DNA of 27,016 nt from Octopus sinensis. Its lineage: Eukaryota. The first letter of the stretch is position 1; the number at the start of each line of letters is the position of its first letter. A program made the position numbers and the translations under genes. This document shows positions 16,092-16,545 of this stretch, piece after piece. The notes beneath the pieces are model-generated. The model did no database searches and was not told where the DNA came from. It worked only from the letters and a program-made list of their open reading frames with translations. The DNA is taken from the NCBI RefSeq assembly GCF_006345805.1, contig NW_021835612.1, positions 1-27,016 of the forward strand, read 5' to 3'.

Positions 16092-16545
16092 ATAAATGGA
16101 GTTAACGCAGGTGTTATTCAAATACTTTTAATTCCGAGACATGTTTCGAAGATATTATTGGTATTATTCCAAAGAAATAAAATGATGTAAACAATGTAAT
16201 CTTCTCTTCGGGGAAATGAAGAAATAAAATTCGTCAATAAAACATTTTAATACAATGTGATAGACATGTATAGTGATGAACTGAACGCTATTGAAGAGAA
16301 GATTACATTGTTTTACATCATTTTATTCCTTTGCAATAATACCAATGATATCTTCGAAACATGTGTCGGAAGTAAAAGAATTTGAATAACACCTGCAATT
16401 AACTCCATTTATTTATTTATATATATTATACAAAATATTTCACATAAACCCGGAGTTTCTACCTTAAAAACGAGGAGTTACACCATTTTTATTTGTGTGA
16501 CTTTTTGCTACCCTAGTAACTGTTTATTTTTTATGCACACATCCA
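16092..16545. mobile_element. Fold-back element with hammerhead motifs (Penelope-like terminus), inserted in (TA)n
   Basis: Imperfect inverted repeat with arms of about 118 bp (16092-16209 and 16293-16412), a spacer of about 83 bp and a unique tail to about 16545. Both arms contain GAAGA-GAAGAT...ATCTTC-GAAAC-ATGT-(G/C)TC-GGAA. Confidence 0.75.

What the first reader, a model, noticed from the sequence alone, without database searches (positions are those of the whole stretch)
16092..16545. 118-bp-arm inverted repeat whose two arms together reconstruct a hammerhead with an unusually long stem II
Seen: the minus-strand arm reads TTCC-CCGAAGA-GAAGAT[about 45 nt]ATCTTC-GAAAC-ATGT-CTC-GGAA, and the plus-strand arm reads TTGAAGA-GAAGAT[...]ATCTTC-GAAAC-ATGT-GTC-GGAA. 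The composite TTCC-CTGAAGA...GAAAC-ATGT-GTC-GGAA has the full core, stem I TTCC/GGAA, a GUC triplet and the palindrome ACATGT in helix III, as in dimer-acting minimal hammerheads. The large stem II insertion, with extra CATTG/CAATG pairing, is atypical of the compact motifs I know.
Basis: partly seen in the sequence, partly recalled or inferred. Interest (0 to 1): 0.7.

Follow-up and report, generated by a model that had tools for sequence, protein, structure and literature searches.

The report
Broken Penelope end, long-armed hammerhead
This inverted repeat is two broken end pieces of a very common Penelope-like jumping gene joined head to head, a known layout; neither piece keeps a whole ribozyme motif, but thousands of relatives in the genome carry a predicted self-cutting RNA with an unusually long, conserved second arm.

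Summary
The inverted repeat is real (arms 16094-16209 and 16293-16410, 92% alike). It is two 5'-truncated ends of a Penelope-like retrotransposon joined head to head inside (TA)n, a published layout. Full-length relatives encode a 775-aa reverse transcriptase with a C-terminal GIY-YIG nuclease, closest to the Hydra clade but lacking its linker zinc finger.

The genome holds 3,691 matches to the long-stem motif (control 0), 85% with CUGANGA. Stem II stays paired over 12-13 positions across subfamilies (307 of 364 cells; 34-46% when slid), with a few two-sided changes.

Neither window arm is intact. The plus arm is cut inside the core ('TTGAAGA' is the junction); the minus arm has decayed. The arms lie on opposite strands and cannot complement each other. 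The dimer-forming palindrome is 8 nt, not ACATGT. Cleavage is untested.

Two family-level oddities: a very young, ORF-intact lineage has fixed a CCGAAGA core, and the lineage still ends in (TA)n without the linker finger. This scan's notes report the same long-armed motif on other DNA. Ordinary locus, modest variant.

The parts
15946..16094 (.). (TA)n microsatellite at the 3' end of the minus copy (likely target site)
   Evidence: 73 of 85 family copies have (TA)4+ at one of two fixed distances against 15% of random places
16094..16292 (-). 5'-truncated inverted copy of the element's 3' end (about 80 nt of 3' UTR, the hammerhead region, and the 3' end at the first terminus)
   Evidence: aligns over about 200 nt to subfamily copy L004 and to 3' UTRs behind GIY-YIG ORFs
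16130..16217 (-). Decayed type I hammerhead motif: complete layout, but U4C (16210), G16.2 changed to C (16138; triplet CUC, stem III pair lost), and a stem I mismatch
   Evidence: sequence; CCG copies of this subfamily are scattered on the tree, so the U4C here is likely post-insertion decay; fold z = -0.32
16148..16204 (-). Long stem II region of the minus copy (57 nt)
16291..16293 (.). Head-to-head junction of the two truncated copies, with at most 1 nt shared
16293..16410 (+). 5'-truncated direct copy, starting inside the hammerhead core; lacks C3 and the 5' strand of stem I
16298..16355 (+). Long stem II region (58 nt): 6-bp outer helix, 2x2 loop, 5-bp helix, asymmetric loop, 7-bp distal hairpin (one pair broken here)
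   Evidence: family pairing
16356..16373 (+). GAAA core half, self-complementary stem III ACAUGUGU (16359-16366), GUC triplet (16365-16367), 3' strand of stem I GGAAGU
16411..16545 (+). Tail on one copy only; homologous to the 5' UTR that precedes the ORF in full-length elements
   Evidence: matches L061 and L070 up to window 16528-16532; exactly one arm has the tail in 22 of 27 inverted pairs
16545..16656 (.). (TA)n microsatellite at the 3' end of the plus copy

Best explanation
The locus is two 5'-truncated 3' ends of a Penelope-like retrotransposon joined head to head within (TA)n, likely from one insertion event, and neither end keeps an intact hammerhead, while its family carries a predicted type I hammerhead with a conserved 53-59-nt stem II. 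Shown by calls: copy number, the link to an RT plus C-terminal GIY-YIG ORF, the junction, two fixed 3' termini, the tail equal to the 5' UTR, and stem pairing across subfamilies. Inferred from published PLE work: the ORF protein binds a pLTR-ORF-pLTR-5'UTR transcript, nicks (TA)n, and starts reverse transcription internally at two sites (about 45-50 and about 200 nt past the predicted cleavage site). Two aborted cDNAs then join back to back, which gives one arm with a tail and one without. Also inferred: the ribozyme cuts slowly, as a dimer formed through the 8-nt self-complementary stem III of tandem copies and probably with protein help, and the long stem II is a folding or protein-binding extension rather than a catalytic part. 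Any RNA read through this locus is predicted to snap back into a hairpin of about 118 bp and be inert as a ribozyme.
For: Repeat family and junction. Upstream GIY-YIG in the same subfamily: (L067). Full elements with one 775-aa ORF flanked by two hammerhead-bearing pLTRs plus an inverted copy: L061. 51 homologs at E<=1e-20 with the same motifs. Layout, tail and (TA)n preference are described in PMC8557442; opposite-strand pairs 100-700 bp apart in PMC4209133; internal initiation and protein-assisted cleavage in PMC11167929. Termini: 53 of 85 copies meet (TA)4 at +35..75 and 20 of 85 at +165..240. Structure: RNAalifold recovers stems I and II unprompted; stem II 307 of 364 cells paired against 34-46% slid, stem I 150 of 196 against 46-64%; cells with two-sided change 22 against 11.4 shuffled, 0 of 500; Rfam Hammerhead_1 hits intact copy L118 at E 0.002. 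Purine at position 4 occurs in only 21 matches.
Against: No cleavage or expression data. Two of five covariation measures were not above shuffles (pairs with two-sided change 7 against 5.2, 52 of 500; further pair types 18 against 20.5, 491 of 500), and the distal hairpin showed no two-sided change. The two-sided changes come from few events on the tree. The 28 rows were hand-picked from 154 distinct copies, and many came from a pattern that fixed the core, GAAG and stem III, so those positions are conserved by construction. Stem II is poorly populated in the predicted fold of 5 of 28 rows (P<0.3: A1, Y3, G2, G4, D). The Rfam hit is below the gathering score (26.3 against 34) and is 1 of 10 copies tested. 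Pfam gave no hit for the ORF, so RT and GIY-YIG are called from motifs and homologs. A young ORF-intact lineage has a non-consensus core, which argues that fast cleavage is not essential. No ORF piece was found beside subfamily B or D copies.
Confidence: 0.85

Rival explanations
1. Same origin, but the family's hammerhead is no longer needed as a catalyst. The long stem II is kept as an RNA handle (promoter, protein-binding or RT-initiation element), and the core is drifting in the active lineage.
For: The lineage with near-identical intact ORFs (L061-L064, 99.3-99.8% identical over 1.8-3.0 kb) has CCGAAGA, a G10.1.U11.1 closing pair and GUA (L064). U4C lowers activity considerably in vitro (PMC3088659 passage). 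Core mutants did not affect insertion in vitro for an anole PLE (PMC11167929).
Against: 3,153 of 3,691 matches keep CUGANGA, other young subfamilies (B, C, CUGAGGA-type) keep it, and C3, G5, A6, G8, A9 and GAAAC are retained in the U4C lineage. The same passage says U4C viroid ribozymes remain sufficient in vivo. The stem III palindrome is kept through a two-sided change (AUAU to ACGU).
Confidence: 0.25
2. One reading: a stand-alone foldback element whose two defective arms together supply one working hammerhead.
For: Each arm lacks something that the other has.
Against: The arms are on opposite strands, so one transcript holds only one in sense and is predicted to form a -178.9 kcal/mol hairpin. 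Junction positions vary freely among copies (146-4,074 nt between cleavage sites in 27 pairs). The minus-arm defects are private changes.
Confidence: 0.02
3. A MITE or other DNA transposon with 118-bp terminal inverted repeats, inserted at TA, whose hammerhead look is chance.
For: Short, non-coding, inverted arms in a TA context.
Against: The arms are the 3' end of an RT-encoding element, one arm runs on 135 nt beyond the repeat, most fetched copies lack a fixed partner distance, and the hammerhead layout is conserved across subfamilies.
Confidence: 0.02
4. A non-LTR retrozyme: a non-autonomous tandem repeat that spreads through circular RNA.
For: Type I hammerhead with a weak palindromic stem III, as in retrozymes (PMC7229834 passages). 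An abstract argues that retrozymes derive from PLE pLTRs.
Against: No tandem unit here; the copies are nested 5' truncations of an autonomous element.
Confidence: 0.04

Closest known systems
Hydra-clade EN+ Penelope-like elements, including Hydra-1_Obim (Craig et al. 2021, PMC8557442; passages, section 11, supplement parts 1-2 and search hits seen)
   Same: Single ORF with RT and C-terminal GIY-YIG, DKT motif, CxxC and CxH around the conserved E and N, about 2.9 kb per unit, (TA)n insertion, hammerhead in the 3' pLTR, inverted 5'-truncated copies and a one-sided tail.
   Different: At most about 26 nt between the core halves in the 26 Hydra rows of File S2, against 52-59 here. Linker CxCX5C absent; RWL instead of RWK; tail about 135-160 nt, not 30-40. 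The Hydra-1_Obim hammerhead is a different sequence, and two of three searched family motifs (each in DNA and RNA spelling) gave no hit in the supplement, nor did the third.
Minimal and palindromic-helix-III hammerheads of metazoan PLEs (Cervera and De la Pena 2014, PMC4209133; parts 1-2 of 4 read)
   Same: Type I topology in pLTRs, weak palindromic helix III suggesting dimer action, G10.1-C11.1, opposite-strand pairs 100-700 bp apart.
   Different: Published helix II is 6-8 bp with a short loop; here it is 12-13 positions plus an asymmetric loop and a distal hairpin, with no extra nucleotide between A9 and G10.1.
PLE-X1_sMoe and PLE-X1_sTam hammerheads (File S2 of PMC8557442)
   Same: About 50 nt between the core halves, flagged as deviating from the canonical structure: a precedent for long loop 2 in PLEs.
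   Different: EN-minus spike-moss elements in rDNA; no covariation analysis in the parts read; unrelated sequence.
PAc (Poseidon) of green anole (Frangieh et al. 2024, PMC11167929; parts 1-2 of 4 read)
   Same: Model for internal RT initiation at two sites, AT-rich targets and a protein-assisted hammerhead.
   Different: Different clade; its hammerhead overlaps the start codon, whereas here the core is 329 nt upstream of the ATG and 207 nt behind the stop.

Membership tests
EN+ Penelope-like element | Single ORF with RT and GIY-YIG endonuclease | tested here: met
   L061:3710-6034, 775 aa; RT motifs (FDIS.FY.SI, MGS.DSA, GLYRDD) and IYQC..FYIG align with 20 homologs. Pfam itself gave no hit.
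EN+ Penelope-like element | pLTRs from partial tandems, inverted 5'-truncated copy, one-sided tail | tested here: met
   L061 self-comparison; 22 of 27 inverted pairs with a tail on exactly one arm, 1 on both, 4 on none by my pattern
Hydra clade | C-terminal EN without CCHH; CxxC and CxH on either side of conserved E and N | tested here: met
   CLLCNSE...N...RCKH; only 8 cysteines in the ORF
Hydra clade | DKT motif | tested here: met
   SDKTG at residue 121; DKT or DKS in 50 of 51 homologs
Hydra clade | RWK motif | tested here: not met
   RWL at the aligned place; RWK or RWR in 37 of 51 homologs
Hydra clade | Linker zinc finger CxCX5C | tested here: not met
   No cysteines at the aligned place in L061, L067 or L130; present in 47 of 51 homologs. 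The family is therefore called Hydra-like, not filed as a strict member.
Hydra clade | No insertion-in-fingers domain; short (<3 kb) | tested here: met
   RT3-RT4 spacing equals that of the homologs; 2,863 nt core to core in L061
Hydra clade | Insertion into (TA)n | tested here: met
   73 of 85 copies against 15% of random places
Hydra clade | Groups with Hydra elements in an RT phylogeny | not tested
   Reference sequences were seen only in a paper supplement and compared by eye
Type I hammerhead ribozyme | Core CUGANGA...GAAA and NUH triplet (family) | tested here: met
   3,153 of 3,691 pattern matches have CUGANGA; 29 of 34 in the window's subfamily cluster, collected largely by sequence similarity
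Type I hammerhead ribozyme | Core and stems intact (the two window arms) | tested here: not met
   Plus arm lacks C3 and the 5' strand of stem I; minus arm has U4C and a broken stem III; no Rfam hammerhead hit
Type I hammerhead ribozyme | Three helices around the core, supported by covariation (family) | tested here: met
   few independent events; R-scape not available
Type I hammerhead ribozyme | Tertiary contact between loop 2 and stem I | tested here: inconclusive
   No conserved pseudoknot was seen by eye in alignment A2; not tested by computation
Type I hammerhead ribozyme | Self-cleavage | not testable with these tools
   Needs an in vitro assay
Non-LTR retrozyme | Non-autonomous tandem repeats of a few hundred bases | tested here: not met
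   Nested truncations of an ORF-bearing element

The most novel reading that the evidence does not exclude
A whole radiation of Hydra-like Penelope elements has evolved a distinct hammerhead subtype whose 55-nt stem II is a selected module, a docking site for the element's own protein. This module lets a still-active lineage tolerate a U4C core, and that lineage targets (TA)n without the linker zinc finger that was proposed to do the targeting. The subfamilies would then form a natural series for testing what PLE hammerheads and the linker are for.
Probability: 0.25. Interest if true: 0.58.

Novelty: new variant of a known kind. Interest (0 to 1): 0.3.

Why it matters
The locus itself is a dead fragment of a known kind. 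The family matters modestly. First, thousands of long-stem hammerheads fall below the Rfam cut-off (0 of 10 intact copies reached it) and outside short-spacer descriptors, so genomic ribozyme counts are likely too low. Second, the role of PLE hammerheads is open, and this family offers young lineages with canonical and U4C cores side by side. Third, (TA)n ends without the CxCX5C linker run against the suggested link between that linker and microsatellite targeting.

Tried and rejected
Rfam on the window and on 16095-16545: no hammerhead, only miRNA-family matches driven by microsatellites and the hairpin; rejected as chance. Single-arm folding is no better than shuffles (z -0.32 and -0.38). 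Pfam on five ORF pieces and on the whole ORF, and PDB by sequence: nothing useful. Naiad clade was considered from the 'HHR_half_core' note and rejected because EN is C-terminal. A CCG sub-lineage within the window's subfamily was tested as the source of the minus arm's U4C: 3 of 31 copies, scattered on the tree; rejected. The first divergence estimate for the U4C lineage (0.046) did not show it as young; it included chimeric upstream flanks, and from the core onward it is the lowest of eight groups (median 0.009). One part failed through a faulty pattern and was redone. Sequencing runs: no RNA holder listed. Contigs of four runs labelled as four other organisms cover all 29 bins of a subfamily copy; these are of unknown kind and are used only as a hint that the family is shared. 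Notes search by sequence found nothing. Seven paper searches listed no paper describing this long-stem family; an octopus repeat paper has no mention of hammerhead or Hydra in its main text. The Terminon paper was not held, supplements of PMC4209133 and of the bioRxiv preprint were not seen, and Repbase and Dfam could not be searched; any of these may hold the family.

Full report
Observation. The arms are 16094-16209 (minus) and 16293-16410 (plus), with 7 mismatches and 2 gaps. They lie between two (TA)n tracts. Rfam finds no hammerhead there, and neither arm folds better than shuffles.

What the locus is. The arm is a high-copy repeat in G000 (2,597 candidates, 40 scored). In fetched copies the sequence upstream of the arm is a 3' UTR preceded by a GIY-YIG-type coding region on the same strand. 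A search with that region gave 150 scored matches of 13,120 candidates. I fetched ten with long open frames. L061 is a full unit: inverted truncated copy, pLTR, one 775-aa ORF, pLTR, tail, (TA)n. Against a subfamily copy, the window's minus piece spans 16094-16292 (about 200 nt) and the plus piece starts at 16292/16293, inside the core. So 'TTGAAGA' is the junction, and the 82-nt spacer is further 3' UTR of the minus piece. The plus piece runs on to 16545 with sequence homologous to the 5' UTR of full elements. In 22 of 27 inverted pairs exactly one arm has this tail. Of 85 copies, 53 meet (TA)4 at +35..75 nt and 20 at +165..240 nt after the predicted cleavage site, 12 neither; 15% of random places do so. 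This is the layout described for PLEs in PMC8557442 (passages) and PMC4209133 (parts 1-2). The host looks octopus-like from its repeats; that is recalled and inferred, not tested.

Which PLE. The ORF has 51 homologs at E<=1e-20 among 7,995 candidates scored but no Pfam hit. It shows DKT, a C-terminal EN with CxxC and CxH, RT spacing like its homologs and a unit of 2,863 nt, all Hydra-clade traits by section 11 of PMC8557442. It resembles Hydra-1_Obim by eye. Two listed traits fail: RWL for RWK, and no CxCX5C linker, which 47 of 51 homologs have; the linker is also missing in L067 (the window's subfamily) and L130. I therefore call the family Hydra-like. No tree with reference elements was built.

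The hammerhead in the family. The pattern CYGANGAGAAG-N44-56-GAAACAYRTGTM has 3,691 matches and the reversed control none; 538 have CCG and a further 21 have a purine at position 4. From all loci I extracted 164 motifs, 154 distinct, in 14 clusters of two or more. The window's cluster has CTGAAGA in 29 of 34. I picked 28 real copies by hand to span the subfamilies. RNAalifold predicts stems I and II without being told. Read outward from the core without alignment, stem II is paired in 307 of 364 cells against 34-46% when slid, and stem I in 150 of 196 against 46-64%. Two-sided changes occur at stem I position 2 (C-G/U-A) and stem II positions 5, 6 and 12, among others; positions 7, 8 and 13 are often unpaired. 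In one search, cells with two-sided change (22 against 11.4; 0 of 500) and the covariation score (1 of 500) exceed shuffles; pairs with two-sided change (52 of 500) and pair types (491 of 500) do not; the distal hairpin is 80% paired with no two-sided change. The events are few, kin share them, and the pattern fixed the core, GAAG and stem III, so the free tests are stem I, the 3' arm and the inner stem II. Rfam Hammerhead_1 matches 1 of 10 intact copies in 8 loci (L118, 26.3 bits, E 0.002), below its cut-off of 34.

Stem III. In a dimer, A15.1 must pair with U16.1 of the partner (established hammerhead numbering, recalled), which needs the 8-nt register. That is ACAUGUGU with two wobbles here (-6.0 kcal/mol), and perfect ACAUAUGU (-7.0) or ACACGUGU (-10.3) in sister subfamilies.

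The window arms. The plus arm lacks C3 and the 5' strand of stem I. The minus arm has U4C, a broken C15.2-G16.2 pair and a stem I mismatch; CCG copies are scattered in this subfamily (3 of 31), so this is likely decay. The arms differ by about 8%, close to the subfamily's pairwise divergence (0.062). They are on opposite strands, and a read-through RNA is predicted to form one hairpin of -178.9 kcal/mol. They cannot act together.

A lineage with a changed core. In a sister lineage CCG outnumbers CTG 475 to 347. Loci L061-L064, 99.3-99.8% identical over 1.8-3.0 kb with long open frames, carry CCGAAGA; L061-L063 and L070 also carry G10.1.U11.1 and GUA (L064's core). This group has the lowest divergence of eight (median 0.009), but 4 of its 6 loci were chosen for long ORFs, and a first estimate with flanks gave 0.046. 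Other young groups keep CUGANGA. PMC3088659 (passages) notes that U4C lowers activity in vitro yet suffices for a viroid in vivo.

Mechanism. Shown: structure, linkage, termini, pairing. Inferred from PMC11167929 (parts 1-2): nicking of AT-rich DNA, internal initiation at two sites, protein-assisted cleavage that was not needed for insertion in vitro. Inferred from PMC4209133: slow dimer cleavage. The role of the long stem is a guess.

Novelty. The locus is a known kind. The long stem is longer than in any of 26 Hydra rows of File S2 (at most about 26 nt), but two spike-moss PLEs have about 50 nt, and eight Naiads have core halves 35-50 nt apart. Seven paper searches listed no description of this family; PMC7229834, PMC6155905 and PMC13282606 were seen as passages and one preprint as an abstract. 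Unseen supplements and repeat databases may hold it. This scan's unchecked notes report the same motif type on other DNA, two in this genome; my reading was set before that. Verdict: new variant of a known kind, interest 0.3.

Noticed in passing
L061:3710-6034, L067, L130: The ORF lacks the CxCX5C linker found in 47 of 51 homologs, yet copies end in (TA)n; this runs against the suggested link between linker and microsatellite targeting.
   Followed up: partly
L061-L064, L070 and 475 genome matches: A very young, ORF-intact lineage has fixed a CCGAAGA core, in part with a G.U closing pair of stem II and a GUA triplet.
   Followed up: partly
L068:430 (-), 1147 (+), 1747 (+): An unrelated hammerhead with 76 nt between the core halves and a perfect 8-nt palindromic stem III, in a 600-nt tandem unit with an inverted copy and no obvious ORF in the 700 nt upstream; looks retrozyme-like.
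   Followed up: partly
L059:953 (+), L065:5183 (-), L051:560 (-), L031:3219 (+): Further unrelated hammerhead motifs with 59, 43, 42 and 35 nt between the core halves, each predicted to fold as a long hairpin; long stem II seems common to several families of this genome.
   Followed up: partly
L063:2052-4616 (-): An 854-aa open frame in which the element's ORF, missing its first residues, is fused in frame to about 80 unrelated residues that resemble a host PKD-type domain (recalled, untested).
   Followed up: no
L071-L082 (subfamily B): A young sister subfamily with a canonical core occurs mostly as very short inverted pairs (about 240 nt between cleavage sites); no ORF piece was found beside 12 loci, so it may be non-autonomous.
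   Followed up: partly
L009 and L048: Pieces of more distant related ORFs (43% and 34% identical to L061) show further PLE families in the genome.
   Followed up: no
window 15790-15930: A copy of an abundant short repeat resembling a tRNA-derived SINE (label recalled) sits just left of the (TA)n tract; similar copies occur elsewhere in the window and in many loci.
   Followed up: no
window 16848-16897: A short palindrome with arms of about 16 nt (CAGCTGTTTCTGGGAT and its near complement).
   Followed up: no
window 13352-13531: A 19-nt minisatellite, 9.5 copies, 87% matches.
   Followed up: no
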